DNA of 64,000 nt from an uncultured Candidatus Saccharimonadales bacterium (GTDB lineage: Bacteria > Patescibacteriota > Saccharimonadia > UBA4664). Of this stretch, positions 30,203 to 45,236 are shown in pieces. The position numbers were made by a program, and so were the translations under genes. How positions within the stretch are numbered: the first letter of the stretch is position 1; every line of letters begins with the position of its first letter. Where the stretch lies: contig CAZSRA010000004.1 of assembly GCA_964609585.1 (NCBI GenBank), positions 27,417 through 91,416 of the forward strand, given 5' to 3'. Under the pieces are notes generated by a model. The model saw only the letters and a list, made by a program, of their open reading frames with translations, had not been told where the DNA came from and made no database searches.

Positions 30203-31114
30203 GTGATGATTATGGAAGAGGGACAACTTCTCGAACTTCCCGTGCTGCCGGCCTTTGGGCTGCCGATGAATGTGAGCCTCGTTGCTAGATTCGGCGGACA
30301 CGCAAGTGCCCTCGATTTCGGTACGCCGGAGGAGGGGGCGACTCTGTTGCGCGAGACTGACCTGCTTGCGCCTGAAGCTCCCGGCTGGGATAGGTGGCTG
30401 TTGACCAACTACAACAAGGTGGCTCATGGTGACCTCGGGACCTACCGAAAGCTGGTTGCTGAGGCGGAACACAGTCCAGTAGGGGATTACGTTAGGGCAA
30501 TGATCGAAGGTCTGTTCTGGCACGGGCATGGTCTGAAGGTGATCCTGCTGGACGTCCCGGAGTCGTCGCTCTCGCGATCGGTTCTGCGCGCCGTGATGCG
30601 CCAGGGCGAGGTTCAGTCGAAGCGGCTACCCTTTGACCGGGCCGTGGAAAGTTTTCATGGTCTTTTGGTCGAGGCGATGCTTGTGAACATCCAGCGTGAA
30701 CATTATGTGCTGGTGAATCTCGCTCCGACGATCGAAGGAGCTATCGCGAACACGCCGAGACTGCGCGGACGGACGCCGGTACGAGTGCTCATACTGATGG
30801 GCGCTTACCATCAGGCCATGGGGCAAGAGATCAAATCGTGTCAGCGTGAGCTGGGTGTTGCTGGGTTCAGTTATACCGAATACGTCCAGCCTGGATTTGA
30901 GGGCTTGAGTATGACGAAATTCGGCAATGTGTGTCGCAGTGGAGTGGTGCCGAGTAGGGAACTGGCCGCCAGAGTGTTCGCTCATAATCTCGTGAGCGCC
31001 CGGCATTCCTTCTCGGACATCGAGCATAGCGGCGCCCAGAGCGCACACGTGCAGGCGATCGTCGACAGCATGTCGATGGCCGACATCCGGAATCTGTACA
31101 ACGAATCTCGGTGA
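30203..31114 (+). CDS. hypothetical protein (303 aa), compositionally atypical (about 59% GC, many C-ending codons on + strand)
   Basis: long ORF with SD; no family recognised. Confidence 0.5.
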   Translation: MMIMEEGQLLELPVLPAFGLPMNVSLVARFGGHASALDFGTPEEGATLLRETDLLAPEAPGWDRWLLTNYNKVAHGDLGTYRKLVAEAEHSPVGDYVRAMIEGLFWHGHGLKVILLDVPESSLSRSVLRAVMRQGEVQSKRLPFDRAVESFHGLLVEAMLVNIQREHYVLVNLAPTIEGAIANTPRLRGRTPVRVLILMGAYHQAMGQEIKSCQRELGVAGFSYTEYVQPGFEGLSMTKFGNVCRSGVVPSRELAARVFAHNLVSARHSFSDIEHSGAQSAHVQAIVDSMSMADIRNLYNESR

Positions 31115-31129: not shown

Positions 31130-31177
31130 GGGGTCGCGGCGGACGAAGTCTGCTGCGACCCCGTTTCGTTTCTTGTG
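31130..31177 (+). terminator. rho-independent terminator (GGGGTCGC...GCGACCCC stem + T-rich)
   Basis: ggggtcgcggcggacgaagtctgctgcgacccc gtttcgtttctt. Confidence 0.6.
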
Positions 31178-31220: not shown

Positions 31221-31736
31221 GTGTATGTGCCACAGGTAGACATAAAAAATAAGCGCTCTAAGAAGCCAATATTCGTGGGAGTGGGAGCTCTCGGCATTGT
31301 TGTGATTATCGTTGGCGGGGTGTTGTGGTATGTGGGCCATCCTGCGGTTACGACTCAGACTGTATTGACACAGGCGGCGGACAAAGAGTTTTCCGGTGAC
31401 GGAAAAGGTGCGATTGCGCAATTGGAGCAACAGTTGAGTCATGCGAAAACCAATGAAGACAAGGTGAATATCTACTTGGCTATTGGAGTCGCCTACGAAA
31501 ATGAGCATGATAGTAAATCGGCGCTGGCGGCATATCAGAAGGCGGGGGCGATTAGCGCAAGCTATGGGACAAACGATTCTATAGCCAGGGCAGCTGCGGA
31601 AACGGGTGATAAGCCAATGGCAATTGATTACTATAAGCGCAATCTTGCCTTGATAAACGAGGGTAAAGCCAAAGAGAGTAGCGGTGATGCTCCGACGATT
31701 GAGCAAGCGATTAAAGACCTGGGGGGTACCCCATGA
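31221..31736 (+). CDS. N-terminally membrane-anchored small protein with TPR-like helical C-terminus (171 aa); partner of secreted protein A
   Basis: N-terminus PQVDIKNKRSKKPIFVGVGALGIVVIIVGGVLW homologous to N-terminus of 33778 ORF; ATGA overlap with next gene. Confidence 0.5.
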   Translation: MYVPQVDIKNKRSKKPIFVGVGALGIVVIIVGGVLWYVGHPAVTTQTVLTQAADKEFSGDGKGAIAQLEQQLSHAKTNEDKVNIYLAIGVAYENEHDSKSALAAYQKAGAISASYGTNDSIARAAAETGDKPMAIDYYKRNLALINEGKAKESSGDAPTIEQAIKDLGGTP

Positions 31737-33667
31737 GGAGTCGTCTTGTAGTCGTAGCTGCGGTGGTGTTGTTTGCTATCGGGGTGGTAATCCCGGCCGG
31801 ATCTGCGGAAGCGGCGCCGTTTGCTCGAGCTGCAAATCACGGCTTTTTTACCAATCGATGTGATAACGGAGGCGGATCGGTCATAACGAGCGGTGTTCAC
31901 CCGACGGCCGCACCGTTGTACAACGGTAAGCCCTTCACTGCTAGCTTTATATCGCAGGTGCTTGGTTATCTGAGTGGTAGTGGTGGGAATAAGACGGGTG
32001 CTGAATTCCTGATTCTAACCATGCTCGGATATCCGGCTGGAACACCCAAGGCGACGGCGACCTTTGGGTTTGTTCAAACGAACTGGGTGAATTTGGTACA
32101 TGGTTATAGCGATAGAGGATGGATTCAGTGGAACGTCGCCTATAGTTTTACGTCTGATACATATTACCAAGGCGTGTATTCGTCGGTGGGTGGAATTTGT
32201 GACGGCATTGCTGGGTTCCCGGATGACGATGCTTGGTATTCACATTCGGCGACGGCTAATCCGGCGATTGTTTTTCACCAACCTGGGACAACTAGCTTCT
32301 ATGCCATACAGGAGTCGTGTGCAAATCCGCTCGGTGACTTTAATTTGCCGCCGTTGCCGATTCCAACGCCTGTTCCAAACTATAATGTGACTTTGTCGGC
32401 GGATACGAATGGTTCACCCTCCACGGTGGTGGCGGGGCAAAGCTATCGTATAGGCGTGGCAGTGAGCAATAGTGGGCCGGCGGCTTCGACCGTGGGCGAC
32501 ATTGAAGTGATGATGCCAGCAGCAGGCGTGGTGCAAGCTTGTGGGCCAACCTGTAATGACCCGGGCCAGAATGTGCTACTTTATGGTCCGACGGGCCCGG
32601 GAGGGCACAGTTACCGGGCGGCATCGACGATCCCGGGGACGGTCGGGCGCAACTGGGATTGGTCGGTGAATCCGCTGGGAGCAGGGGCGGGTGCCGGTAG
32701 TGTATTGAACTGGACGGTGGCACCGGGGACGCCAGTGGGGACGGTAATTACGTTTGATGTGTATTACTATAAGCAGAATTTGGCTGGCGGGGTGCAGCAT
32801 GTGACGGTAAGCTTCCGCGTGGTGTCGCAACGGACTCCGAGTATATCGGCTGCAAATAGCGACGTTCATGCAGGCGGTGGGCTGTGCGGGCAAGCATTGT
32901 CTGGCGGTAACGTGACGACGAGTCCGGGCGGAGCCTCATATGGCCAGTATGTAGTGTCGGCAACGGGCTCGATTAACAGTTTGTTTTCGAATAACGCCAG
33001 CAGTGGGGTCACGGATACGTTGAAGCTAGGCAATTTTGGCAGCTATGCTCAGGTATGTCGAGCGGATTTGTGGACGGCGGCTAAGGCGGGATGGCCGAGT
33101 GGGCCCGGTATTCATACCATTGGCGGATTGGGTGTCGCGTCGTTTGTGCTGGCGGGTAATGAAGGTGGGGTTTATTACTTCAACGGCACACACTTGAACC
33201 TGCACGGGGCGGTGGGTAATCCGATAGCTCCGGGCGTGCCGCCAGCTCCGGTGACGATTGTGACGCTCCAGCCGGGTGCAGTTGTCGAGATTGACGGCAA
33301 TATTACACTCAATAATACGGTGTATCCGCCGCACAGCGCGCCGTCGCTTGGGATTATTTCGGCGGGAGACATTTTGATTGATCCGGCGGTGACGCATGTG
33401 GATGCGTATTTGTTTTCTTCGGCAGGGACGATTGATACTTGTAACCCGATTGGGTCCTGTTCTACGCCCCAGTTGGTCGTGAACGGGTTTTTGATGGCCA
33501 AGAACATTTTGTTTAGTCGGGCGGGGGTCGTGAATACGAACGGCAATGCGGTGTCGGAAGCGATTAATCTGACGCCTCAAATTTACCTCAATCCGCCTAA
33601 ATATTTTGACGCGAGTGTGGATGATGTATTGCTCCAGGGGCAGGGTGAGCGAGCGCCTTTGTTCTGA
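31733..33667 (+). CDS. large secreted protein A (644 aa): signal peptide, variable N-terminal region (DUF11/Ig-like stretch), conserved ~270-aa C-terminal domain shared with 34208 ORF
   Basis: signal peptide MRSRLVVVAAVVLFAIGVVIPAGSAEA; C-terminal identity with paralog. Confidence 0.6.
   Translation: MRSRLVVVAAVVLFAIGVVIPAGSAEAAPFARAANHGFFTNRCDNGGGSVITSGVHPTAAPLYNGKPFTASFISQVLGYLSGSGGNKTGAEFLILTMLGYPAGTPKATATFGFVQTNWVNLVHGYSDRGWIQWNVAYSFTSDTYYQGVYSSVGGICDGIAGFPDDDAWYSHSATANPAIVFHQPGTTSFYAIQESCANPLGDFNLPPLPIPTPVPNYNVTLSADTNGSPSTVVAGQSYRIGVAVSNSGPAASTVGDIEVMMPAAGVVQACGPTCNDPGQNVLLYGPTGPGGHSYRAASTIPGTVGRNWDWSVNPLGAGAGAGSVLNWTVAPGTPVGTVITFDVYYYKQNLAGGVQHVTVSFRVVSQRTPSISAANSDVHAGGGLCGQALSGGNVTTSPGGASYGQYVVSATGSINSLFSNNASSGVTDTLKLGNFGSYAQVCRADLWTAAKAGWPSGPGIHTIGGLGVASFVLAGNEGGVYYFNGTHLNLHGAVGNPIAPGVPPAPVTIVTLQPGAVVEIDGNITLNNTVYPPHSAPSLGIISAGDILIDPAVTHVDAYLFSSAGTIDTCNPIGSCSTPQLVVNGFLMAKNILFSRAGVVNTNGNAVSEAINLTPQIYLNPPKYFDASVDDVLLQGQGERAPLF
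32858..33667 (+). repeat. ~0.8-kb segment duplicated at 35237..36064 (C-terminal domains of the two large secreted paralogs, high nucleotide identity)
   Basis: e.g. agcgacgttcatgcaggcggtgggctgtgcgggcaagcattgtctggcggtaacgtgacgacgagtccg vs agcgacattcatgcaggtggcgggctgtgcgggcaggcattgtctggcggtaatgtgacaacgagtccg. Confidence 0.85.
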
Positions 33668-33777
33668 TCGGTATGGGCTCCGAGGGGATGTGCAGCTGAA
33701 CTGAGAAGGGGGGTATAGAGGCTGCAAGGCCATAAAGGTTATGGTAAACTTACGTGAGTATAGTTTGTGAGTGTTAG

Positions 33778-34227
33778 ATGCCCCAAGTTGAAATAGTTCC
33801 TCATGGTTCGAAAAAGCCGGTGGCTACTATTGGAGCTGGTGTAGCTGGCGTGATTTTGGTGGCGATTGTGATAGCGGCAGTGATGTGGCTGAACCGGCCG
33901 AAGCCGAAGTCGACGCTACCGATAACTCGGGTAGTGACACCGAAGAACACCACTTATTACGCCGTAGTGAGTGCCGCAGATGTCGCAAAAGCTCACGAGA
34001 CTCTGGCGGCGGAGGGGACTGTGCAATCATTTGACGGGAAGACGATAGGGTTTTTAGCGAATGGTTCGAAGCAAACTTTGAAGCTTGTGGTCACGCCTTC
34101 TACTCGATACACAAAAGGTGCCAGTTATGCGCCGGCCCAGGCTAGCGGTTTGAAGGGTGGCTCGCGTGCTATTGTGACCTACAATTCGAGAACTAATGAA
34201 GTGATGAGTGTGGCTTATGATCTCTAG
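33778..34227 (+). CDS. N-terminally membrane-anchored small protein (149 aa); partner of secreted protein B
   Basis: PQVEIVPHGSKKPVATIGAGVAGVILVAIVIAAVMW similar to 31221 ORF N-terminus. Confidence 0.5.
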   Translation: MPQVEIVPHGSKKPVATIGAGVAGVILVAIVIAAVMWLNRPKPKSTLPITRVVTPKNTTYYAVVSAADVAKAHETLAAEGTVQSFDGKTIGFLANGSKQTLKLVVTPSTRYTKGASYAPAQASGLKGGSRAIVTYNSRTNEVMSVAYDL

Positions 34228-36064
34228 AAGGAGAACATGGCGACTTCGGCGGCCGATGACGATGGTGGTGGCGATAGCTGAGATCATATGGACGTTGGGA
34301 ATAGTGGTGCCGGCACAACCGGCATTTGCTGCGCAGGTGATTCAGAATTTGGCAACGAGCTCATCGCCTTCATTGCAGACACGATGGTATAGCTTGCGTG
34401 GATACGGCAGTATTCCGAAATGGGAACTGAACTGGCCGCAGCGAAGCGAGAATTGTCCATTTAACGGCAAGACCTATAAGACTTTGCCGTGGCAAGCTTA
34501 TGATCCGTTTAACTTATTTTTTAATGGCAACTACATGGATATCAGCAGTAACTGCGCTGATCGTTATACAGACGCGGGTACAGCGATTGGTGGGGGAGCC
34601 TGGATTTATCCAAGTGCACAAGGGGGCTGGGCAATGCCCGGGGGGCCACAATTTATAAATTGGCAGTCGGGGGCGTTTCCGGCTTTTTCGACGGTAATGA
34701 ATGGGTGTTTCAACGGTTCGCTGCCGGGCGGAAATGCAGCTGCGATTTGGGGAGCGGCTGGTCCTGATACGAGCGACCAGTTTTATGCGAGCGGCCCGAT
34801 TGGCACCATCCCCGGATTTGCTAATGGCTTATATTACGATAACTATCCTGGCGGTATACCTCAGGCTACAAAGCTGTTTTCAAATGGAGTAACGCTCGTA
34901 CGAGATAGCTTCAACTTGAACGCGACGGACATGATAAGGCTCAATCAGGGAAGCACCTCGTTGTTTATGCAAGCCTACGCGGATGACTGGTTGCAGGTTT
35001 ACCTTAACGGAGTTGCTGTGGGTGCATATACGACGACGACGGCGAGTAGAATGTCGCTTGATCTGACTGCGGTGAAGGGTTTGCTGGTGCCCGGGCAGAA
35101 TTGGATTGGGGTAATGGCTGCGGATAAGGCGGTGTTTGATGCGGCGGATCCGGGTGGTCGTGGGGCTGGGGTCTGCTACAACTTGCAGTACAAATACAGC
35201 GATGCCATTAGTAATCCGGGCTTACAGGGACTTAATAGCGACATTCATGCAGGTGGCGGGCTGTGCGGGCAGGCATTGTCTGGCGGTAATGTGACAACGA
35301 GTCCGAACAATCCGCCGAATCCTCCAGTGTCGTATGGGCAATATGTAGTGTCGGCAACGGGTTCGATTAATAATTTATTTTCGAATAATGCAAATAGTGG
35401 GGTGAATGACAAGTTAAAGGCGGGGAGCTCGGGAGGGTATGCGCAGGTGTGCCGAGCGGACTTATTGACGGCTGCTCGGGCAGGATGGCCGAGTGGGCCT
35501 GGGATTCATACCATTGGAGGTCTTGGAGCTGCATCTTTCAATCTGACAGGGACTGAGAGCGGGGTTTATTACTTTAATGGTACGCATTTGAACCTGCACG
35601 GGGCGGTGGGTAATCCGGTGGCTCCGGGTGTGCCGCCGAGCCCGGTGACGATTGTGACCTTGAATCCGGCGGCGGTGGTGGAGATCGATGGCAACATTAC
35701 GCTCAATAATACGGTGTATCCGCCGCATTCGGCGCCGTCGCTGGGGATTATTTCGGCATCGGATATTTTGATTGACCCGGCGGTGACGCATGTGGATGCT
35801 TATTTGTTTTCTTCGGCGGGGACGATTTATACGTGTAATGCAGCGCCGTCGGCTTGCTCGACGCCTTTACTAACGGTAAACGGGTTTTTGATGGCGAAAG
35901 ACCTTTCTTTTGGCCGGGTAGGGCCGTTTAACACTATGGGGTCGCCGATTACTGAGAGTATTGTGATGACGCCTCAAATCTACCTTAATCCGCCGAAGTA
36001 TTTTGATGTGAGTGTGGACGACGCTGTGTTGCAAGGGCAAGGTGAAAAACCCCCGCTATTTTAG
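34208..36064 (+). CDS. large secreted protein B (618 aa): signal peptide, distinct N-terminal region (PA14-like stretch AYADDWLQVYLNGVAVG), conserved C-terminal domain shared with protein A
   Basis: start uncertain (34208/34217/34256); overlaps preceding gene. Confidence 0.6.
   Translation: MWLMISRRRTWRLRRPMTMVVAIAEIIWTLGIVVPAQPAFAAQVIQNLATSSSPSLQTRWYSLRGYGSIPKWELNWPQRSENCPFNGKTYKTLPWQAYDPFNLFFNGNYMDISSNCADRYTDAGTAIGGGAWIYPSAQGGWAMPGGPQFINWQSGAFPAFSTVMNGCFNGSLPGGNAAAIWGAAGPDTSDQFYASGPIGTIPGFANGLYYDNYPGGIPQATKLFSNGVTLVRDSFNLNATDMIRLNQGSTSLFMQAYADDWLQVYLNGVAVGAYTTTTASRMSLDLTAVKGLLVPGQNWIGVMAADKAVFDAADPGGRGAGVCYNLQYKYSDAISNPGLQGLNSDIHAGGGLCGQALSGGNVTTSPNNPPNPPVSYGQYVVSATGSINNLFSNNANSGVNDKLKAGSSGGYAQVCRADLLTAARAGWPSGPGIHTIGGLGAASFNLTGTESGVYYFNGTHLNLHGAVGNPVAPGVPPSPVTIVTLNPAAVVEIDGNITLNNTVYPPHSAPSLGIISASDILIDPAVTHVDAYLFSSAGTIYTCNAAPSACSTPLLTVNGFLMAKDLSFGRVGPFNTMGSPITESIVMTPQIYLNPPKYFDVSVDDAVLQGQGEKPPLF
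35237..36064 (+). repeat. second copy of the ~0.8-kb duplicated C-terminal-domain segment
   Basis: see 32858..33667. Confidence 0.85.
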
Positions 36065-36121
36065 GGCGCGAGTATTTCGCGAGTATTTCGCTTACATAAT
36101 GGTTATGGTAGAATTTGGATC

Positions 36122-37162
36122 ATGGGACTTTTCGTAAAAGAAGCAGAATTTTTCGGACTAGACATTGGATCAACGGCGATTCGGCTGGTGCAGCTGCGAC
36201 GAGCAGGGGATCATCCGGCGCTGGTGGCTTATGGATCGGTGCCGGTGCCGTTAAATCTGACGTCGAGTGACTCGAAGCTGGATCAGGATAAGATCGTAGA
36301 GCTCGTGAAGCAAGTGGTGCATGAGAACCGGGTGGCTTTGAAGAATGTGGTAGTGGGGCTGTCGGCAAATAAGGTGTTTGCCACGGTCATAACGACACCG
36401 AAACTCGATAACGCCCAGCTTGCGAAGGCGATTCGATACCAGGCTGAGCAATATATTCCGATGGCGCTTGATCAGGTGAAGCTTGATTGGTCGGTGATAG
36501 ACCAGAGTAAAGATGGTAAGCAGCTCGAAGTGCTGCTTGTGGCGGCGCCAAATTCGGCGATTGACAAGTACGTGGGAATTTTGGAGAAGGCGGGACTTGA
36601 GCCGCTAGCCTTGGAGCCAAATGCAACGGCGGTGGCTAGGGCTTTGATTCCGGTGAACAACTTGGCGGTGGTGGTAGTGGATTTTGGATCGCTGGATTCG
36701 GATATCTCCATTGTATGGAACAACGGGCCACGGTTGATTCGTTCGGTGTCGGTGGGGAGTACTACGCTGGTGCGATCGGTGGCGCAGAATTTGGGACTCG
36801 ACGAGGTGCAGGCGAATCAATTTACCTTTAAATTTGGTCTGACGCAGTCGAAGCTTGAGGGCCAGGTGTTTAAGGCAATCAAGCCGACATTAGACAACTT
36901 GGTGTCGGAAGTGGATAAATCTACGAAGTACTTTTTGGGGCGATACCCAGACGTGAAACTGGAGAAGCTGGTGATAACGGGGGCGGCGTCGAGTTTGCCG
37001 GAGCTAGGTCCATTTTTGGCCAATTCAACGGGACTACCGGTAGAGTTTGGCAACGCATGGACCAACGTGTCGTATCCGTCGGCGCTGCAGGATAAACTGA
37101 TGGGACTTTCGGTGGAATATGCGGCGGCAGTCGGACTGGCCGGCCGGGGGTACATGGGATGA
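36122..37162 (+). CDS. pilM: type IV pilus assembly protein PilM (actin-like ATPase fold)
   Basis: 346-aa first gene of the PilM/N/O/B block; N-terminal FGLDIGSTAIRLVQL actin-fold ATPase motif typical of PilM/FtsA-like proteins. Confidence 0.85.
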   Translation: MGLFVKEAEFFGLDIGSTAIRLVQLRRAGDHPALVAYGSVPVPLNLTSSDSKLDQDKIVELVKQVVHENRVALKNVVVGLSANKVFATVITTPKLDNAQLAKAIRYQAEQYIPMALDQVKLDWSVIDQSKDGKQLEVLLVAAPNSAIDKYVGILEKAGLEPLALEPNATAVARALIPVNNLAVVVVDFGSLDSDISIVWNNGPRLIRSVSVGSTTLVRSVAQNLGLDEVQANQFTFKFGLTQSKLEGQVFKAIKPTLDNLVSEVDKSTKYFLGRYPDVKLEKLVITGAASSLPELGPFLANSTGLPVEFGNAWTNVSYPSALQDKLMGLSVEYAAAVGLAGRGYMG

Positions 37163-37749
37163 CAATGCTCATTAACCTTTTGCCGGATCTGCGTCAGGCT
37201 AAGCTAAAGGAGCGCCATCGTCGTCAATTGGTGACGGGCGTGTCGGTGACGGTGTGGATTGCCTGCGGAGCCATTGTGGCGCTGCTGTTTGTGTACATGG
37301 GCGGGCAAAAGGTGATTATTGCGACGACGACGAAGAGTGTGTCGGACAAAGAAGCGTCATTGCAGTCGATATCGGGTCTGGAGGATGCTTTAACGGCTAG
37401 CCAGCATTTGTCGAGCTTGTCGAGTTTGTATGCTAAACGCGTGTACATGAGTAAATTTTTTGATGTCTACATGCAGGCTAATCCCGCGACGGTAGCTCTG
37501 AGCTCGATGCAGATTGATTCATCGAATATCTTGACGATCCTCGGGACAGCTCCGAGCTATGCAGAGGTGGCAAAGCTAGCTCGTGCGCTCGAAGGGTCTA
37601 ACGTGACGGTGGGCGCGGGAGCGGCGGAGGCGAATGCGCCTTACTTTAGCAATGTAAGCATTCTGAGTCTTGATAACAGTGCTAAGACGGGCGTGAGTTT
37701 TACTATTAGCGCCACTTTGGCGGCAGGAGTAACCAGTGGCAGCAACTAA
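37159..37749 (+). CDS. pilN: type IV pilus assembly protein PilN
   Basis: N-terminal INLLP motif and TM helix; ATGA overlap with pilM. Confidence 0.7.
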   Translation: MTMLINLLPDLRQAKLKERHRRQLVTGVSVTVWIACGAIVALLFVYMGGQKVIIATTTKSVSDKEASLQSISGLEDALTASQHLSSLSSLYAKRVYMSKFFDVYMQANPATVALSSMQIDSSNILTILGTAPSYAEVAKLARALEGSNVTVGAGAAEANAPYFSNVSILSLDNSAKTGVSFTISATLAAGVTSGSN

Positions 37750-38380
37750 GACAACGGTTAAAGCAGAGAATTTATCAAATAATAATTTGATGATTGTGAT
37801 GCTGTTGATATCGCTTCTGGCGGTGGGCGTGTCGGTGCTTGTGGGCAAATCTTTGGTGACAACGATCGTACGCGATACAACAGTAGTGAAAAAGGAAAGC
37901 GCAGCCGATAAACAGCTTTCGTCCGATAAAGATGCGGCGCCGAAGCTGGTAGACGCATACGGGCAGCTCAATGACAAGACTAAACTTGTGGCAGACGCAT
38001 TGCCAACAGAGCCGGATTTTCCGAGCCTGATCGTGACACTTGAGAATATGGCAAAAACAGCGGGTGTGACGCTTAAAAGTGTGACACCTGCTCAAGCGGG
38101 TGCGTCGTCGGTGGATGCGTCGGCCGGGGCTACGGCCGCTGCTTCTACGGACACAAGTGTGGCGCCGACTCCTCAGAGCTATAAGTTTGGCATTAGTTTT
38201 AGTGGGACGTACGCTAGTTTGACAAAGTTTTTGACGGTTATAGAGACTTCGGCCCGGCCGATGCGGGTGCTCGATATGCAGCTCGCTGGTGGCGGAAGCG
38301 CTTTGAGCGGGCAGTTTGACGTCGAAACCTTCTATCAAGGTAAGGCTCAATTGCCCTTCGGTAAGGAGACGGTGAAATGA
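37736..38380 (+). CDS. pilO: type IV pilus assembly protein PilO-like
   Basis: single TM, coiled coil, position after pilN. Confidence 0.6.
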   Translation: MAATKTTVKAENLSNNNLMIVMLLISLLAVGVSVLVGKSLVTTIVRDTTVVKKESAADKQLSSDKDAAPKLVDAYGQLNDKTKLVADALPTEPDFPSLIVTLENMAKTAGVTLKSVTPAQAGASSVDASAGATAAASTDTSVAPTPQSYKFGISFSGTYASLTKFLTVIETSARPMRVLDMQLAGGGSALSGQFDVETFYQGKAQLPFGKETVK

Positions 38381-38631
38381 AACAAAAAGATATTATCTCT
38401 TTAGTGTTCGCAGTTGGGATTCTTTTGGTGGCCGGCTACATTGGCTATACGCAGCTTTTGCCAAAGCAGGCTACGGGTCCAACCACGGTGACCGTAGACA
38501 AGGTAGGGGTAATTCCTGATAGCTTGGACGCTTCGGGGCTTGCGGCCATTAATGATCCCACCAAGGTGGTGGATTTTAATGCGCCGGTGGATTTGTCGGG
38601 CTTGAACAATCAAGCACCGTTTGGTCCCTGA
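38377..38631 (+). CDS. small single-TM protein in pilus operon (PilP-analogue candidate)
   Basis: 84 aa, overlaps pilO stop, TM helix. Confidence 0.4.
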   Translation: MKQKDIISLVFAVGILLVAGYIGYTQLLPKQATGPTTVTVDKVGVIPDSLDASGLAAINDPTKVVDFNAPVDLSGLNNQAPFGP

Positions 38632-38653: not shown

Positions 38654-40438
38654 TTGCGAGGTCTGATGCTATCGGTTGAGAGCCAGCAGCGGATAGAAGA
38701 ACTTCTACTTGAGGGTAAACTGCTCAAGCCGGAAGATCTTGAGACGGCTAAAGTGGATGCGCTAAAGGCGTCTAAGCCGCTCATTGCCTACATTGCTGAA
38801 AAAAATTTGGTGGGCGAAGAGGATCTGACGCGGATTTCAGCGCAGGCTATGGGGGTGCCTTACGCAAATTTGAACGCGTTAACGGTACCAGATGACATTA
38901 CGAAGTTGCTCGCGAAAGAGACGGCCGAAACGTATCTGGCGGTGCCATTTGGCATGCAGCAGGGACGGTTGGCCGTGGGTATGCTCGACCCGACCAATAT
39001 CCAGGCTGTGGACTTTTTGAGCCGCAAGGTGGGACACAACATTACGGTGTATTTGGCGTCGCGGGGATCGATTGATCATGTGCTGGCGCAGTTCCATAGC
39101 GATGTGGCGGCGGATGTGGCGAGCGCGATGGATGTCGCGAGTGTGGACGATCACCCGAAGGTGGAGGCAAAGAATGCCAAGGGGCTGCAGAATTTGGTGC
39201 AGGATGCGCCGATTACGCGCGCCTTGAACGCGATTTTGGATTATGCGGCGCAGAGCCGGGCGAGTGATATTCACATTGAGCCGCGCGAGCATGAGCTGAA
39301 GATTCGTTACCGGATTGACGGTATTTTGCAGGAGACGATGACGCTACCGAAGAGCATTGAGCCGGCGCTGATTTCGCGCATTAAGATTTTGAGCAATTTG
39401 CGGATTGATGAGCACCGGATTCCGCAGGACGGGCAATTTCAGATTAGCTCGAATGGGCACGAGATTGACCTGCGTATTGCGATTTCGCCAGTGGTGTGGG
39501 GCGAGCAGGTGGTGGTGCGGCTTTTGGACAAGAGCGGGACAGTGCTGACGCTGGAGAGTCTGGGTTTTCGAGGCCGGGCGGCGCGACTGATTGATGAGGG
39601 AATTCATAAGCCGCATGGGATGACGCTTTCGACGGGGCCGACGGGTTCGGGAAAGAGTACGTCGCTGTACGCGATTGTGCAGGAACTCAAGGATGTGTCG
39701 ATCAACATTGTGACGCTGGAAGATCCGGTGGAGTACAAGATGGACGGGATTAATCAGATTCAGGTGAATAATGATGTGGGCCTGACGTTTGCGAGCGGGC
39801 TGCGGAGTATTTTGCGGCAGGATCCGAATGTGGTGCTGGTGGGGGAGATTCGCGATAAAGAGACGGCGGATCTGGCGGTGCAGGCGGCGCTGACGGGACA
39901 CGTGGTGCTTTCGACGATTCACACGAACTCGGCGGCCGGGGTGTTGCCGCGTATGCTCGACATGGGGATCGAGCCGTTTTTGATCGCGAGTACGATTAAT
40001 ACGGTGATTGGGCAGCGGCTGGTGCGAAAATTGTGCGAGAAATGCAAGGAATCATTTGAAACGAACGAGGCGCAGACAAAGTCGATTATGGCGACTTTGG
40101 GCGATGTGCTGCCGAAGACGAAGAGTGAGCTGGAACGGGTAAAGAAGGACGTGGGCTATGAGGTGGTGCCAACGGCCGACCAGAAGACGTTTACGGTGTA
40201 CAAGGCGGTGGGTTGCAAGGAGTGTGTGAAGGGGTACAAGGGGCGGATTGGTATTTATGAGGTGTTTGCCATGACGCCGGCGATGGAGAAATTGCTGCTT
40301 GAGCATTCGACGACGAGCGAGGTGCAGAATCAGGCATCGAAAGATGGCATGCTAACGATGAAGCAGGATGGGTACTTTAAGGCTTTGAATGCGCTGACGA
40401 CTTTGGAAGAGGTAGCGCGGGTGGCGGCGGACTTTTAG
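38654..40438 (+). CDS. pilB: type IV pilus assembly ATPase PilB (GspE family)
   Basis: Walker A GPTGSGKST, GspII_E N-domain, tetracysteine motif. Confidence 0.9.
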   Translation: MRGLMLSVESQQRIEELLLEGKLLKPEDLETAKVDALKASKPLIAYIAEKNLVGEEDLTRISAQAMGVPYANLNALTVPDDITKLLAKETAETYLAVPFGMQQGRLAVGMLDPTNIQAVDFLSRKVGHNITVYLASRGSIDHVLAQFHSDVAADVASAMDVASVDDHPKVEAKNAKGLQNLVQDAPITRALNAILDYAAQSRASDIHIEPREHELKIRYRIDGILQETMTLPKSIEPALISRIKILSNLRIDEHRIPQDGQFQISSNGHEIDLRIAISPVVWGEQVVVRLLDKSGTVLTLESLGFRGRAARLIDEGIHKPHGMTLSTGPTGSGKSTSLYAIVQELKDVSINIVTLEDPVEYKMDGINQIQVNNDVGLTFASGLRSILRQDPNVVLVGEIRDKETADLAVQAALTGHVVLSTIHTNSAAGVLPRMLDMGIEPFLIASTINTVIGQRLVRKLCEKCKESFETNEAQTKSIMATLGDVLPKTKSELERVKKDVGYEVVPTADQKTFTVYKAVGCKECVKGYKGRIGIYEVFAMTPAMEKLLLEHSTTSEVQNQASKDGMLTMKQDGYFKALNALTTLEEVARVAADF

Positions 40439-40552: not shown

Positions 40553-41167
40553 TCAGGCGATGGCGGCGTTCGTGTACTGGCAGAAGGATCTGACGGGTCG
40601 CTGACCGTTGAGCCAGTTGAACGCATCTTGGAGCGCGCCGGGGAGCGTCGTGATGACGAGTGGAGGTACGCCTCCGCTTGCCTGGTGGAAGATCGCTGGT
40701 GTGCACACGAAGCTCGTTTGCGAGGAGTTCGGTGTGACCCCGATCATCACCAGGCCGGGGTAGTCGGGATCGGCGGTGATGACGAGAACGAGGCAGTCAT
40801 TGCGCCAGCGCTCCAGCTTGATGCTGGGACTGGCCTGCGGACTGCTGCTGCCGGGATCCTGGTAATGGAACCCGGCGTTCGATAGTGCTTGCTGGTTGTC
40901 CCAGTTCAGGATCGTGGCGCCGACGACGGCGGGCGAGGTCGATGCGGGCCTGCAGGCGGCTTTGATCTTGATGTCGCTTGCCGAGATGCTCGCGGTCGCA
41001 TCGGTTGATGTGCTTGAGCTGGGCTTGTCGCCTGCGGTGGGCGTGGTCGTAACGACCGAGGTCGAGTGCGCCGGGTGGTTGTGGGCGCTGTAAGCGGCGA
41101 CGCTGGCACCCGTGAGAGCGACAGCTGCGAGGATCACAGCGGCCAGATTGCTACGCCGAGTTCGCAT
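40553..41167 (-). CDS. secreted protein (204 aa; Sec signal, S/T-rich linker, 4-Cys C-terminal domain), paralog of 41371 ORF, ~65% GC
   Basis: ATG at 41165-41167 with SD GAAGG; signal MRTRRSNLAAVILAAVALTGASVAA. Confidence 0.5.
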   Translation of the reverse strand: MRTRRSNLAAVILAAVALTGASVAAYSAHNHPAHSTSVVTTTPTAGDKPSSSTSTDATASISASDIKIKAACRPASTSPAVVGATILNWDNQQALSNAGFHYQDPGSSSPQASPSIKLERWRNDCLVLVITADPDYPGLVMIGVTPNSSQTSFVCTPAIFHQASGGVPPLVITTLPGALQDAFNWLNGQRPVRSFCQYTNAAIA

Positions 41168-41215
41168 ACGCGAGCCTTCTTTCTTCGTCTGGGTTGTCAA
41201 AAATGGACGATTAAT

Positions 41216-41266: not shown

Positions 41267-41370
41267 CCTAAGATTTCAAAAAAGGAGCTTGGGTGCTCTT
41301 GAAGCCTTAGGCTTGCGCCGGTCCCCGCGCGCCGAAGGCGCGGGGACCGGCATGCAAGACGGGAAGGGAA
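41267..41370 (-). repeat. cassette 3' repeat copy 2 with perfect 14-bp GC hairpin (gccggtccccgcgc...gcgcggggaccggc)
   Basis: hairpin and flanking CCTAAG...CTTAGG arms read directly from sequence. Confidence 0.7.
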
Positions 41371-42012
41371 CTAGCTCCTGGTGCAGTCGGACCCGCCGTT
41401 GGCGAGCCAGACGTCCAGCTTGGTGAGCGCGACGTCGACGTTTGCGGCGTCCAGCGGCAGGCTCACGTTGCACATGAACCCCTCCGGCCTCTTGGTGCGC
41501 GTGGAGTCTTCGTACATGCCGATCAGGAGGATCGTCGGGTTCGCGCCGGTGGTGACCAGCATCGAGGTGCAGCCCTGCGTCTCCTTCCAGTCCTCCCAGC
41601 CATCGGTGTCCGAGCTGACGTTGTGGAAGCCGAAGCCGGCGCTCGTGAGCGGCTGAGCGGGGATCTGGCCGAGCTTCGTACCGGAGGGCGGGCTGAACTG
41701 CGTTGCGGTGGGGCAGCCGGTGACCTGGTCGATCGTGGCCTCGAGGCCCTGGGCGGTCGGGTCCAGCGTGATCGCCGACGGCGACGTGGTCGGCACGGCG
41801 GTCGAGTGGGCGGGGGACGGGGAGGCCGCGGCGTTGGCCGACTGGGACGCGGAGGCGTTGGTGGTCGGCGCCGGAGCGACGACGTTCTGGCCGCCAGCGA
41901 AGCGCGGGTTGACGTTGGGCTTCGCGCCCCTGGATCCGCTGCAGGCAGCGGTGCTGAGGGCGGTGGCCAGGAACAGGCCGATGAGGCTGGAGGCGCGCTT
42001 CGAGATTCGCAT
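41371..42012 (-). CDS. putative lipoprotein (213 aa; lipobox-like LSTAAC, S/T/P/A-rich linker, Cys-containing C-terminal domain), paralog of 40553 ORF, ~66% GC
   Basis: shared motifs with paralog (GF.(Y/F)...; LV.T(A/G).P..L(L/V)IG; F(V/M)C; WL(N/A)G); SD GAAGGGAAC. Confidence 0.5.
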   Translation of the reverse strand: MRISKRASSLIGLFLATALSTAACSGSRGAKPNVNPRFAGGQNVVAPAPTTNASASQSANAAASPSPAHSTAVPTTSPSAITLDPTAQGLEATIDQVTGCPTATQFSPPSGTKLGQIPAQPLTSAGFGFHNVSSDTDGWEDWKETQGCTSMLVTTGANPTILLIGMYEDSTRTKRPEGFMCNVSLPLDAANVDVALTKLDVWLANGGSDCTRS

Positions 42013-42104
42013 GGTGTGCGAGTTCCCTTCTTAAAGTGTCTTGCGGGGTCAAGGTAGCGATCGCTCGAGTAAATCTAGGGACTACAATGAGCAGATCGTT
42101 AACT

Positions 42105-42133
42105 ACTTTAGCATAAGTAGTATCATTTGTCAA
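42105..42133 (-). promoter_or_regulatory. near-consensus sigma70 promoter TTGACA-N17-TAAAGT (minus strand) for cassette gene b
   Basis: reverse complement of actttagcataagtagtatcatttgtcaa. Confidence 0.55.
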
Positions 42134-42670: not shown

Positions 42671-43741
42671 GTGGAGAGAAGTGCCCTCAAAATTGAATTG
42701 ATGCTGGAGCAGGTGATTAAGTTTGATGCGTCGGACTTGCACCTTCAGGTGGGTCTGCCGCCGATGTTACGGGTGGATGGTTCACTCAAGCAGATTGAGG
42801 ACACGCCGGTACTTGAGCCTGCGGACGTAGAAAAGCTGGTATTTTCGATTTTGGACGATGATCAAAAAGAGATTTTGATCAAAGACAAGGAAGTGGATTT
42901 TTCGTTTGCGTTTGGAAACTATGGGCGATTCCGGGTAAATGCGTTTCACGAGCGCGGGAATGTGGCGGCAGCGCTGCGCCTGATTCCGAGCAAGGTGCGG
43001 ACATTAGAAGAACTCCAGATGCCGAAGGTGTTGCAGGACTTTACGAAGTTTCCGCGCGGGTTGGTGCTGGTGACGGGGCCGACGGGCTCGGGTAAATCGA
43101 CGACGCTCGCGGCTATGGTGGACAAGATTAATGCTGAGCAATCGAAGCACATTTTGACGATTGAGGACCCGATTGAGTACGCGCATAGTTCGAAAAAATC
43201 GATCGTGGTGCAGCGGGAAATTCACTACGATACGTACTCGTTTGCGGCAGCTCTACGCTCGAGCTTGCGGCAAGACCCGGATGTGGTGTTGATCGGTGAG
43301 ATGCGCGATCTTGAGACGATTGCGGCGGCAGTGACGATCGCGGAGACGGGGCACTTGGTGCTGGCCACCCTGCACACGAACAGCGCGGCTCAGAGTATTG
43401 ATCGTATGATCGACGTATTTCCGCCTCACCAGCAGCAGCAGATTCGGGTGCAGCTGGCAGGTATGCTTCAGGGGATTTGTTCGCAGCGGTTGGTGCCGGG
43501 GATTGGCGGTGGCCGCGTGATAGCGGCTGAGATTTTGGTGGCGACAGGTGCGGTGCGTAACATTATTCGTGAGGGCAAGACGCATCAGCTGGACGCAGTG
43601 ATTCAGACGGGCGCGGAATACGGCATGCAGAGCATGGACCGGCAGCTGGTGGCGCTCGTGCAAGAGGGCAAGATTACCTATGATGAGGCCAAGAATTTTG
43701 CGATTGATTTGCAAGAGCTCGACCGTTTAATGCGAGGTTAG
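42671..43741 (+). CDS. pilT: twitching motility ATPase PilT
   Basis: Walker A GPTGSGKSTT, 356 aa; alternative start 42701. Confidence 0.9.
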   Translation: MERSALKIELMLEQVIKFDASDLHLQVGLPPMLRVDGSLKQIEDTPVLEPADVEKLVFSILDDDQKEILIKDKEVDFSFAFGNYGRFRVNAFHERGNVAAALRLIPSKVRTLEELQMPKVLQDFTKFPRGLVLVTGPTGSGKSTTLAAMVDKINAEQSKHILTIEDPIEYAHSSKKSIVVQREIHYDTYSFAAALRSSLRQDPDVVLIGEMRDLETIAAAVTIAETGHLVLATLHTNSAAQSIDRMIDVFPPHQQQQIRVQLAGMLQGICSQRLVPGIGGGRVIAAEILVATGAVRNIIREGKTHQLDAVIQTGAEYGMQSMDRQLVALVQEGKITYDEAKNFAIDLQELDRLMRG

Positions 43742-43880: not shown

Positions 43881-45107
43881 ATGATTACGTTTGTTTATAC
43901 GGCGCATAAGACCGAGACGGGCGAGACAGTAAAAGCAGAAGTGCAGGCCGAAAATGAGCGAGCGGCGGCGAAGCTGCTGGTGGCTCAGGGGTTGTTTCCG
44001 ATTTCGATTGATCCGAAGGATGGTGCCGGGTTTTTAGCCAAATCTGGGTTTGGAACTCGGGTGGGCGCCAAGGACCGAGTGATTTTTACGCGGCAGCTGT
44101 CTACGCTGATTAATGCGGGATTGCCGTTGACGCAGTCGCTGCGGACGGTGAGTGAGCAGGTGCAAAATAAAACTTTGCACGATGTATCGGTGGCGGTGGT
44201 ATCGAGCGTGGAATCGGGGACGAGTTTGAGTCAATCGTTTGCTCAATACCCGAAGATTTTTAGTGACATTTATGTGAGCTTGGTGGCGGCGGGGGAGTCG
44301 TCGGGGTCGCTGGATAAATCTTTGGAACGGATCGCAATGCAACAGGAGAAGGATGCGGCGATCGTGGGCAAGATTCGCAGTGCGCTGATTTATCCGATTA
44401 TTGTGCTTTTGGTGATTGCGGCGGTGCTAGTGTTTATGCTTACGACGGTGTTGCCGCAGGTGGGTGGGCTGTACAAGGATTTGCATAAGCCGCTGCCGAC
44501 TTTGACGCAGATTTTGCTTGCGATTTCGAATTTTATTATGCACTTTTGGTTCATTGTGATAATCGGGTTGGTGGCTGGCGGGTTTGCGCTGAAGAATTAT
44601 ATACAAACGGAGCAAGGGCGGGCGGTAGCAGACCGAGTGAAGTTGGATGTGCCGCTATTTGGGAAGATTTATCGCAAGGTCTACATGGCGCGGTTTGCTA
44701 GGACGCTGGGGACGATGCTGCAGAGTGGTATCCCGATGCTGGAGGCGCTGCGGATTGTGAAGAATGCCATTGATAACGTGCATGTGGAAGCGGTGCTAGA
44801 GAAGAGTATGCAAGGGGTGAAGGGCGGCAAGGCGCTGTCGACGACGCTGGAGAATGAAGAAACGTTTATAAAGCTGGTGCCGCAGATGATTAAGATTGGC
44901 GAGCAGTCGGGGGCGATTGATTCTATGCTGGACCGGGTGGCGACGTACTACGAGAATGAGGTGGACGAAGAGGTGAAGAACATTTCGACGACGATTGAGC
45001 CGCTTTTGATGGTGGTGCTGGGTGTGACGGTGGGCGGTGTGATTGCGGCGATTTTGATGCCGGTGTACTCGTTGGTGGGGAACGGGTCGGTGGATAATTT
45101 GAAGTAG
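43881..45107 (+). CDS. pilC: type IV pilus platform protein PilC (GspF family)
   Basis: two T2SSF repeats, 408 aa. Confidence 0.9.
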   Translation: MITFVYTAHKTETGETVKAEVQAENERAAAKLLVAQGLFPISIDPKDGAGFLAKSGFGTRVGAKDRVIFTRQLSTLINAGLPLTQSLRTVSEQVQNKTLHDVSVAVVSSVESGTSLSQSFAQYPKIFSDIYVSLVAAGESSGSLDKSLERIAMQQEKDAAIVGKIRSALIYPIIVLLVIAAVLVFMLTTVLPQVGGLYKDLHKPLPTLTQILLAISNFIMHFWFIVIIGLVAGGFALKNYIQTEQGRAVADRVKLDVPLFGKIYRKVYMARFARTLGTMLQSGIPMLEALRIVKNAIDNVHVEAVLEKSMQGVKGGKALSTTLENEETFIKLVPQMIKIGEQSGAIDSMLDRVATYYENEVDEEVKNISTTIEPLLMVVLGVTVGGVIAAILMPVYSLVGNGSVDNLK

Positions 45108-45137: not shown

Positions 45138-45236
45138 GGGCGGTTCGGGGATTGCTCCCCGAACCGCCCGGTTGGTGTGACTCGGGCCTAGGGTCCGAGT
45201 CACAGGACGGGGGTCCGGCTGAGGGTTACCAGCCGG
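45138..45236. terminator. three consecutive hairpins between convergent pilC and PD40-SGNH gene (14-bp, 9-bp, 7-bp stems)
   Basis: gggcggttcgggga ttgc tccccgaaccgccc; gtgactcgg...ccgagtcac; ccggctg...cagccgg. Confidence 0.55.

What the first reader, a model, noticed from the sequence alone, without database searches (positions are those of the whole stretch)
32858..36064. ~0.8-kb near-identical nucleotide duplication within 2.4 kb (C-terminal domains of the two secreted paralogs)
Nucleotide identity between 32858..33667 and 35237..36064 looks high. Long stretches are identical, with scattered synonymous differences and one short indel region around the TCN/CNAAPSAC motif. This implies recent duplication or ongoing gene conversion. 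Such a direct repeat pair can mediate deletion or domain shuffling and is a likely collapse or mis-join point in short-read assemblies.
Basis: seen in the sequence. Interest (0 to 1): 0.5.

Follow-up and report, generated by a model that had tools for sequence, protein, structure and literature searches.

The report
Shared tail domain of two pilus-locus proteins
The 0.8-kb repeat is real but only about 75% identical; it is an old, selectively maintained C-terminal domain shared by two neighbouring secreted proteins with unrelated "heads" that sit directly in front of the type IV pilus genes of a Saccharibacteria-class bacterium, so it is neither a fresh duplication nor an assembly hazard.

Summary
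The repeat exists at the stated place: 32837-33664 versus 35216-36061, which are the last 276/282 codons of two same-strand genes, A (31733-33667) and B (34208-36064). It is not near-identical. DNA identity is 75-76%, protein identity 78-80%, the longest exact shared run is 30 nt, there are two indels, dS is about 1.1 and dN/dS is 0.14.

That divergence is only slightly younger than the split from the nearest sequenced relative (pilB dS 1.4, pilM dS 1.9). "Recent duplication or ongoing gene conversion", efficient repeat-mediated deletion and short-read collapse are therefore not supported.

The repeat is the conserved C-terminal domain of a large family with no Pfam or NCBIfam model (2126 cluster representatives). 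Its predicted fold is an ice-binding-protein-like beta-solenoid. In 11 of 12 domain-family loci examined, the gene lies immediately upstream of pilM-pilN-pilO-pilB in Saccharimonadia.

The two heads are unrelated, and each travels with its own small membrane protein. B's head has relatives (54-74% identity) fused to very different C-domains, while B's own C-domain groups with A's clade at 100% bootstrap. An old domain replacement or gene conversion therefore homogenised the C-domain within this genome. Similar patterns appear in two other genomes.

Function is inferred: alternative adhesive heads on a common docking or anchoring module linked to the pilus.

The parts
31130..31162 (+). Terminator-like hairpin (15-bp stem, 11 G-C pairs, T-rich tail) that closes the upstream unit (orf303) before module 1
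31221..31736 (+). Small partner protein 1 (171 aa): N-terminal membrane anchor (VPQVDI..SKKP + hydrophobic helix) followed by TPR repeats. Its stop overlaps the start of gene A (ATGA). Homologues precede A-type genes in L001-L008
31733..33667 (+). Gene A, 644 aa. Sec-type signal peptide (aa 1-27, AEA|AP, by inspection), alpha/beta head (about aa 30-210), Ig-like CARDB/DUF11-like domain (about aa 215-365), then the C-domain. Identical to database protein P0157
32837..33664 (+). Repeat copy 1: C-terminal domain of A (aa 369-644). Predicted IBP-like beta-solenoid; its last ~15 residues, ending GQGERAPLF, are modelled at low confidence (the family-wide conservation of the C-terminal motif is described in the report)
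33731..33751 (+). Copy 1 of the box CATAAAGGTTATGGTAAACTT (extended -10-like), lying between gene A and the small149 gene. It duplicates the conserved pilM promoter-like box
33778..34227 (+). Small partner protein 2 (149 aa): N-terminal membrane anchor (MPQVEI..SKKP), no TPR. Its C-terminal part is homologous to the small genes that precede B-type genes in L011-L018
34208..36064 (+). Gene B, 618 aa from GTG 34208. The likely start is ATG 34217; the database protein P0173 starts at ATG 34262. Signal peptide (AFA|AQ), a B-type head with a weak galactose-binding-domain-like signal (aa 224-304), then the C-domain
35216..36061 (+). Repeat copy 2: C-terminal domain of B (aa 337-618), ending GQGEKPPLF
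36095..36115 (+). Copy 2 of the box (CATAATGGTTATGGTAGAATT), 11 nt upstream of the pilM ATG. The core GGTTATGGTA is found once, at the same position, in each of L001-L009
36122..40438 (+). Downstream type IV pilus assembly genes: pilM 36122-37162, pilN 37159-37749, pilO 37736-38380, an 84-aa membrane ORF 38377-38631, pilB 38654-40438. Further on lie pilT 42671-43741, pilC 43881-45107 and a prepilin gene 47791-48273

Best explanation
The two 0.8-kb copies encode the same conserved C-terminal domain of two adjacent secreted proteins, A and B. Both belong to the type IV pilus locus of a Saccharimonadia (Saccharibacteria/TM7-class) genome.

Each protein has three parts: a signal peptide, a variable head, and a common C-terminal beta-solenoid. 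Each head is preceded by, and co-inherited with, its own small membrane-anchored partner protein.

Shown here:
- The two C-domains descend from one sequence that was copied within this lineage long ago (dS about 1.1). The copying was by duplication plus head replacement, or by gene conversion of B's native C-domain by A's.
- Both copies have since been kept under purifying selection.
- The heads have separate, older histories.

Inferred mechanism: the C-domain, with its conserved but apparently disordered ..GQGE(K/R)xPL(F/Y) tail, is the common module that docks or anchors these proteins to a lineage-specific partner. That partner would be the pilus tip, the pilus machinery or the cell envelope. 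The swappable heads (A: alpha/beta plus Ig-like; B: possibly carbohydrate-binding) would provide alternative binding specificities. This logic resembles PilY1-type pilus-associated adhesins.

Confidence by part: about 0.8 for the evolutionary account and about 0.35 for the functional account.
For: Divergence and selection:
- 75.2-75.7% nt identity and 78-80% aa identity; dS 1.10, dN/dS 0.14.
- Silent-site identity is 60% against 47% expected, p<1/5000.
- A and B share more informative sites with each other than with L001: 136 vs 86 and 70.

Locus association:
- In the window, in 9 of 10 GTDB-genome loci, and in a distant member on a 1.9-Mb contig, the gene lies immediately upstream of pilM-pilN-pilO-small ORF-pilB.
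- The 7 B-head loci whose DNA reaches that far (L011-L017) show the same position; the eighth, L018, ends inside the gene.

Family:
- The exhaustive profile search gave 2126 representatives at E<=1e-3 and 126 at E<=1e-30.
- The domain ends within 4 residues of the protein's C-terminus in 137 of the 141 best-scoring representatives examined, with a conserved tail.
- There is no Pfam, NCBIfam or PDB sequence match.

Fold:
- The full-length AlphaFold2 model has pLDDT 87.9.

Chimeric history:
- B head vs P0073 head is 74% identical, but their C-domains are only 46% identical. A and B C-domains are 78% identical while their heads are unrelated.
- The clade {A, B, L001, P0161, P0001, P0009, P0160} has 100% bootstrap support and B+P0073 has 0%. 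P0073 and P0074, both with B-type heads, cluster together elsewhere in the tree.
- B's head is 54-60% identical to heads in genomes whose PilM is only 42-46% identical and whose C-domain is <=28% identical.

The same pattern elsewhere:
- L011a/L011b: heads unrelated, C-terminal 420 aa 66% identical, against 44% for L011a vs the L012 protein over the same part. L011b vs L012 is 54% over the full length; its C part was not measured separately.
- L006a/L006b C-domains are sisters (82% bootstrap) although the L006a head is 80% identical to the L004 head.

Both genes are real: the ORFs are intact, and an independent Logan contig (P0002) spans B's head/C-domain junction exactly.
Against: - The functional part rests only on synteny, architecture and fold. 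No experiment or named orthologue was found in the two Saccharibacteria pilus papers read.
- The C-domain is not homologous to PilY1, and there is no prepilin signal. The nearest prepilin gene is 12 kb away.
- One family locus (L010) is not next to pil genes.
- At the protein level, A+B as sisters to the exclusion of L001 has only 47% bootstrap support. The event could therefore be about as old as that speciation.
- The direction and mechanism of the copying are not resolved: duplication plus head replacement, or conversion between pre-existing modules.
- P0073's genomic context was not obtained.
Confidence: 0.6

Rival explanations
1. One reading: a recent tandem duplication, or ongoing gene conversion, keeps the two 0.8-kb segments nearly identical. 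The pair would then be an active substrate for deletion and an assembly collapse point.
For: - The copies are 2.38-2.40 kb apart in direct orientation.
- Short patches are more alike: 92% over 72 nt at 32855-32926, and 93% over 60 nt at 33377-33436.
- A runs test gives p=0.014.
- The Logan contig carrying P0002 ends inside the C-domain.
Against: - Overall identity is 75%, dS is 1.10 and third-position identity is 55%.
- The longest exact match is 30 nt.
- The maximum-run and maximum-segment tests are not significant, at p=0.15 and p=0.16.
- 55 amino-acid differences and two indels separate the copies.
Confidence: 0.05
2. A plain ancient tandem duplication of one whole two-gene module, after which the heads simply diverged beyond recognition while the C-domain stayed conserved. 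No recombination or domain replacement would be involved.
For: - Both modules have the same layout: a small membrane protein, then a large secreted protein.
- Both small proteins share the N-terminal PQV(D/E)I..SKKP anchor motif.
- The box after each C-domain is duplicated.
Against: - B's head and its small partner have clear relatives (54-74% identity) that carry quite different C-domains. A-type heads likewise have their own orthologues.
- Orthologous pairs normally have head identity at or above C-domain identity: 88/75, 89/84 and 68/68. B-P0073 at 74/46 is therefore discordant.
- The C-domain tree conflicts with head relationships at 100% versus 0% bootstrap.
Confidence: 0.08
3. The evolutionary account holds, but the proteins are general cell-surface or envelope proteins (S-layer-like or wall-anchored adhesins). 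They would have no physical link to the pilus, and their position upstream of pilM would be conserved gene order only.
For: - The pilM box looks like pilM's own promoter, so pilM need not be co-transcribed with A and B.
- L010 carries family members away from pil genes.
- The architecture (head + Ig-like + conserved C-terminal module) is typical of surface adhesins, and the IBP-like fold is common in secreted adhesins.
- Neither pilus paper lists such a gene among pilus components.
Against: - Adjacency to pilM persists across lineages whose PilM is only 42-46% identical, and across unrelated head types.
- The intergenic gap to pilM is 57 nt, with no terminator-like site between B and pilM.
Confidence: 0.25
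4. Assembly artefact: one real gene was mis-assembled into two copies, or a chimeric join of two strains created gene B.
For: The source is a metagenome-assembled contig (P0157 and P0173 come from one 95,991-bp NCBI contig). Read depth could not be examined.
Against: - Both ORFs are intact and under purifying selection, and they differ at 25% of sites.
- An independent Logan contig reproduces B residues 143-503 exactly, across the head/C-domain junction.
- Two-module loci with the same logic exist in L006, L008 and L011.
Confidence: 0.02

Closest known systems
PilY1 / PilC family of type IV pilus-associated adhesins (Pseudomonas, Neisseria, Myxococcus PilY1.1-1.3)
   Same: - Large proteins with a Sec signal peptide rather than a prepilin signal.
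- Encoded in pilus loci.
- Variable N-terminal region with a conserved C-terminal domain.
- Several paralogues with different N-terminal parts can occur in one genome.

This comparison rests on established knowledge; the window features come.
   Different: - The C-terminal domain here is a beta-solenoid, not the PilY1 beta-propeller, and there is no PF05567 match.
- The genes sit upstream of pilMNO, not in a minor-pilin operon.
- Each is paired with a small membrane protein.
- Pilus association has not been tested.
Ice-binding-protein-like beta-solenoid (IBP-1 fold, DUF3494 / PF11999)
   Different: - No sequence match to any Pfam model at E<=0.1; identity in the structural alignments is 10-14%.
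- This family has its own motifs: D-x-HAGGG-x-C, YxxVCRxDL, PQIYLNPP, and the terminal GQGExxPLF.
- There is no reason to expect ice binding.
ComZ of Thermus thermophilus (competence pilus protein with a beta-solenoid insert, PDB 6qvi)
   Different: - ComZ is a pilin, with the N-terminal pilin helix and a prepilin signal. A and B have ordinary signal peptides and no pilin fold.
- The resemblance is at fold level only (16% identity).
Concerted evolution / partial gene conversion between tandem surface-protein paralogues with exchangeable domains
   Same: - A region-limited similarity between neighbours exceeds that to the orthologue of the rest of the gene.
- The boundary is sharp and falls at the domain border.
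- The pattern recurs in other genomes.
   Different: The event here is old (dS 1.1), with no detectable recent tract. It is a historical homogenisation or graft, not an active variation system.

Membership tests
PilY1/PilC pilus-associated adhesins | C-terminal PilY1/PilC beta-propeller domain (PF05567) | tested here: not met
   No Pfam hit at E<=0.1. The model shows a beta-solenoid.
PilY1/PilC pilus-associated adhesins | Sec-type signal peptide, not a prepilin leader | tested here: met
   By inspection, the N-termini are MRSRLVVVAAVVLFAIGVVIPAGSAEA|AP and ..VVPAQPAFA|AQ. There is no N_methyl hit. No signal-peptide predictor was available.
PilY1/PilC pilus-associated adhesins | Encoded with the minor pilin genes and located at the pilus tip | tested here: not met
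   The genes lie upstream of pilMNO, and the nearest prepilin gene is at 47791. Tip location cannot be tested with these tools.
Ice-binding-like domain DUF3494 (PF11999) | Sequence match to the family model | tested here: not met
   no match in A, B or ten diverse family members.
Ice-binding-like domain DUF3494 (PF11999) | IBP-1 type right-handed beta-solenoid fold | tested here: met
Type IV pilins / ComZ-like modular pilins | N-terminal prepilin leader and hydrophobic alpha1 helix (N_methyl motif) | tested here: not met
   By contrast, the ORF at 47791 does match PF07963.
Paralogues homogenised by gene conversion or domain replacement | Within-genome similarity of one segment exceeds similarity to the orthologue defined by the rest of the gene, and the trees are incongruent | tested here: met
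   B-A C-domains 78% vs B-P0073 46%, with B-P0073 heads at 74%. Bootstrap 100% vs 0%. Repeated in L011 and L006.
Paralogues homogenised by gene conversion or domain replacement | Recent or ongoing exchange: long identical tracts and low dS | tested here: not met
   dS 1.10, longest identical run 30 nt, tract tests p=0.15-0.16.
CARDB/DUF11-type Ig-like domain (middle domain of A) | Sequence or fold match to CARDB/DUF11 | tested here: inconclusive
Galactose-binding-domain-like module (head of B) | Match to a galactose-binding-like Pfam model above the gathering score | tested here: inconclusive
   - BetaGal_ABD2 matches B at E 0.011-0.03, and 3 of 9 B-type heads at best E 0.0023.
- Glyco_hydro_2_N matches at 0.0074, and at 1.5e-5 in P0142.
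- All scores are below the gathering cut-offs.
- No structure model of B was made.

The most novel reading that the evidence does not exclude
These genes encode a previously unnamed, widespread component of the Saccharimonadia (Patescibacteria) type IV pilus system. It would be a PilY1-like but non-homologous adaptor-adhesin. Its IBP-like beta-solenoid and conserved C-terminal tail would plug into the lineage-specific pilus tip or machinery. Its head, together with a dedicated small membrane chaperone, would be an exchangeable cassette that sets which host surface the episymbiont can bind. Heads would move between lineages and be grafted onto the resident C-domain. That would explain why the C-domains of co-resident paralogues are homogenised while the heads are mosaic.
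Probability: 0.3. Interest if true: 0.7.

Novelty: new member of a known kind. Interest (0 to 1): 0.4.

Why it matters
As flagged, the finding is ordinary: two paralogues share a moderately diverged domain, with no practical risk of assembly collapse or repeat-mediated deletion.

The surrounding biology is of more interest. Saccharibacteria are obligate episymbionts whose type IV pili are essential and mediate host binding (PMC10633639, PMC11623550). Here a large family with no model sits directly in front of pilM in nearly every locus examined, including lineages whose PilM is only 42-46% identical. It carries swappable heads on a domain that is homogenised within each genome.

If these proteins are pilus-linked adhesins, they are candidates for host-range determinants. 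They would also be a concrete, testable target in the cultivable strains.

Tried and rejected
- **Sequence annotation.** Pfam, NCBIfam and PDB sequence searches of A, B and ten family members gave nothing for the C-domain.
- **First genome scan.** The scan with the full alignment failed for lack of a conserved stretch. It worked after trimming to the last 115 residues.
- **First structure model.** The AlphaFold2 model of the C-domain from 10 sequences was weak (pLDDT 59) and gave only marginal Foldseek hits. The 91-sequence full-length model replaced it.
- **Foldseek of the full model.** Hits were dominated by the Ig-like domain (integrin legs, Gram-positive pilins) and gave nothing for A's N-terminal alpha/beta head.
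- **Unavailable resources.** The afdb50 library was not available. An exact look-up of the contig encoding P0157 found no record, so the source organism's name and read data were not obtained. Cluster look-up gave no names.
- **Gene-conversion tract tests.** Tests on silent sites were not significant apart from a runs test.
- **Base composition.** GC and GC3 show no sign of foreign origin for B's head.
- **Consensus promoter scan.** It found fewer sites than in shuffled sequence and missed the conserved box, which lacks a -35 element.
- **Literature.** PilX1 of TM7x was considered as an orthologue and rejected. It is described as a pilin fold with an N-terminal helix and a C-terminal jelly roll, which is a different architecture. 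The Tn-seq paper does not name a gene of this kind.
- **Secretin or pilotin analogy.** An analogy between the TPR partner plus large protein and a pilotin-secretin pair was considered. It was dropped to a remark because only generic, sub-threshold TPR matches support it and the second partner has no TPR.


Full report
**1. The observation**

Two same-strand ORFs carry the repeat: A (31733-33667, 644 aa) and B (34208-36064, 618 aa). BLASTP aligns only their C-terminal parts, A 369-644 with B 337-618, at 78% identity (E 6e-146). The first 336-368 residues show nothing.

At the DNA level the match is weaker than reported:
- blastn aligns 32855-33648 with 35234-36045 at 75.7% over 815 columns, and megablast gives 79.9% over 607 nt.
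- A codon-based alignment gives 75.2% identity, with 84%, 87% and 55% at codon positions 1, 2 and 3.
- 205 of 828 sites differ, and there are 55 amino-acid changes.
- There is a 15-nt indel (B 35312-35326) and a 3-nt indel near the TCN motif.
- The longest exact shared string in any register is 30 nt.

The repeat is therefore real and at the stated place, but 'near-identical' is not correct.

**2. Age and selection**

Nei-Gojobori estimates are pS 0.58, dS 1.10, dN 0.15 and dN/dS 0.14. For calibration, orthologues between the window and the closest genome found (L001; PilM 92% and PilB 90% aa identity) give dS 1.85 (pilM), 1.37 (pilB) and 1.81 (pilN). Their C-domains are saturated at silent sites.

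Silent sites of A and B still carry signal:
- Codon identity at conserved residues is 59.8%, against 46.8 +/- 2.6% expected from codon usage. None of 5000 permutations reached the observed value.
- Three-way informative sites favour A+B: 136 vs 86 and 70.

The common ancestor of the two copies is thus somewhat younger than the split from L001, but old in absolute terms.

Identity along the repeat is uneven. Third-position identity is 70-85% at 32837-32926 and 33377-33436, and 30-45% at 32987-33046, 33107-33166 and 33437-33556. The longest run of identical codons and the best-scoring segment are nevertheless not significant (p=0.15 and 0.16), and only a runs test reaches p=0.014. I see no evidence for a recent conversion tract.

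**3. What the genes are**

The neighbourhood is a type IVa pilus locus: pilM, pilN, pilO, an 84-aa membrane ORF and pilB, then pilT, pilC and a prepilin gene. ychF lies on the other strand upstream.

Each large gene is preceded by, and overlaps, a small gene that encodes an N-terminally anchored membrane protein. The partner of A has TPR repeats; the partner of B does not.

Neither A nor B matches Pfam, NCBIfam or PDB sequences. The only exception is a weak galactose-binding-domain-like signal in B's head.

The shared C-domain defines a large family:
- The word-indexed search found only 8 relatives. The exhaustive profile search found 2126 representatives at E<=1e-3, 410 at <=1e-10 and 126 at <=1e-30.
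- In 137 of the 141 best-scoring representatives examined, the domain ends within 4 residues of the C-terminus, with a conserved tail ..GQGE(K/R)xPL(F/Y).
- Conserved cysteines and the motifs D-x-HAGGG-x-C, VCRxDL and PQIYLNPP recur.

A full-length AlphaFold2 model of A built on 91 sequences is confident (pLDDT 87.9). It shows a signal peptide, an alpha/beta head (about 30-210), an Ig-like domain (about 215-365) and a beta-solenoid (369-about 630), followed by a low-confidence tail.

**4. Conserved position**

A scan of one genome per species found 10 loci, all in Saccharimonadia or Patescibacteria MAGs. In 9 of them the gene ending in this domain lies directly upstream of pilM-pilN-pilO-small ORF-pilB. 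It is usually preceded by a TPR small gene, with ychF on the other strand.

A distant member on a 1.9-Mb contig has the same position. A 10-nt core (GGTTATGGTA) of an extended -10-like box lies just before pilM in all nine loci. In the window the 16-nt box occurs twice and nowhere else: 11 nt before pilM, and again after gene A in front of the second module. The repeated unit therefore reaches beyond the stop codon.

No terminator-like site separates A, B and pilM. A strong one (31130-31162) precedes module 1.

**5. Mosaic history**

Most related genomes have one module. L006, L008 and L011 have two.

A-type heads have many orthologues, such as P0009 and P0160 at 55-56%. B-type heads, together with the B-type small partner, occur in P0073 (74%), P0074 (46%) and eight metagenome loci, L011-L018 (the six compared in full are 50-60% identical over the whole head). 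In the seven whose DNA reaches that far they again lie directly upstream of pilM; L018 ends inside the gene.

Three comparisons show that heads and C-domains have different histories:
- True orthologues have head identity at or above C-domain identity: 88/75, 89/84 and 68/68. B vs P0073 is 74/46.
- In a bootstrapped C-domain tree, {A, B, L001, P0161, P0001, P0009, P0160} has 100% support and B+P0073 has 0%. P0073 and P0074 group together elsewhere.
- In L011, L012 and L017, PilM is 42-46% and PilB 53-55% identical to the window's, and the C-terminal domain is <=28% identical. The B head is nevertheless 54-60% identical.

B is therefore a B-type head joined to a C-domain of the resident (A-type) lineage.

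The same signature recurs elsewhere:
- L011a and L011b have unrelated heads but 66% identity over the C-terminal 420 residues. L011a vs the L012 protein over the same part is 44%, and L011b vs L012 is 54% over the full length.
- L006a and L006b C-domains are sisters (82% bootstrap), although L006a's head is 80% identical to L004's.

Base composition gives no hint of recent import.

Two routes fit the window's layout: [head A][C][box][small149][head B][C][box][pilM]. One is duplication of the A module followed by replacement of the second head and partner. The other is conversion of a pre-existing B module's C-domain. I cannot tell them apart.

**6. How it most likely works**

Shown:
- Two intact, selected genes.
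- A shared C-terminal beta-solenoid domain copied within the lineage long ago.
- Heads with independent histories, each tied to its own small partner.
- Tight and deep conservation of the position in front of pilM.

Inferred: the C-domain and its conserved terminal tail form the common part that binds a lineage-specific partner, whether pilus tip, pilus machinery or cell envelope. That role would explain why co-resident copies stay alike. The heads would supply alternative binding specificities.

The logic resembles PilY1-type adhesins. Membership fails on the defining beta-propeller and on operon context, so this is a functional analogy only.

The main rival is that these are general surface proteins whose link to pilM is positional. 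I give the evolutionary account about 0.8 and the pilus-linked function about 0.35.

**7. Literature**

The TM7x study of two pilus systems lists pilins and machinery but no such gene. Its PilX1 has a different architecture (PMC11623550). The S. epibionticum Tn-seq study reports that most pilus-locus genes and several adhesins are essential, but does not name this family (PMC10633639). I could not map orthologues in those strains with the tools at hand.

**8. Verdict**

The flagged feature is genuine but overstated, and its proposed consequences do not hold. It is an old, selected, shared domain of two modular paralogues. The wider family and its head-swapping pattern next to the pilus genes deserve a modest follow-up.

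Noticed in passing
window 33731-33746 and 36095-36110; L001 6482-6491, L002 3792-3801, L003 4653-4662, L004 10425-10434, L005 2387-2396, L006 7491-7500, L007 10402-10411, L008 10403-10412, L009 10365-10374: A conserved box CATAAWGGTTATGGTA (extended -10-like, TGgTAGAAT) lies just upstream of pilM in nine related genomes. In the window it sits only 11 nt before the pilM ATG, which suggests a leaderless or near-leaderless pilM transcript. The window has a second copy in front of the small149/B module.
   Followed up: partly
window 34208-34262: The start of gene B is ambiguous. The database protein (P0173, 600 aa) starts at ATG 34262 and so lacks a basic n-region. Orthologues keep one (RFRRP), which favours ATG 34217 (MISRRRTWRLRRP...), overlapping the small149 stop. 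An AAGGAG at 34228-34233 precedes an out-of-frame 14-codon mini-ORF at 34237.
   Followed up: partly
window 31130-31162: A strong terminator-like hairpin (15-bp stem, 11 G-C pairs) lies after the unannotated 303-aa ORF (30203-31114). That ORF has no homologue in any related locus and no family match.
   Followed up: no
window 34634-35716 (B residues 143-503): A 1149-bp Logan contig encodes a fragment (P0002) identical to B across the head/C-domain junction. The contig ends inside the C-domain, and its last six residues diverge. This may be a short-read break near the repeat, or strain variation.
   Followed up: partly
window 45229-47583 (minus strand): A 785-aa protein with PD40/WD40-like beta-propeller repeats lies between pilC and a prepilin gene. 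A beta-propeller protein in a pilus locus recalls PilY1 and the propeller-bearing PilX2 described for TM7x.
   Followed up: no
window 40556-41200 and 41279-42133 (minus strand): Two ORFs (215 and 285 aa) with no Pfam match interrupt the pilus genes between pilB and pilT, on the opposite strand.
   Followed up: no
P0016, P0023, P0035 (family representatives); L004 8069-10384: Some large family members begin with the same MP(Q/R)V..basic..hydrophobic anchor motif that opens the small partner proteins (MPQVEI..SKKP). This suggests fusion, or a shared membrane-anchoring signal, between partner and large protein in some lineages.
   Followed up: no
L010 8231-11975 (same MAG as L009): A second locus in one genome carries an A-type family member, a TPR small gene and a 384-aa ORF with only the C-terminal tail of the domain. 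No pil genes lie within 10 kb. Extra copies outside the pilus locus therefore exist.
   Followed up: no
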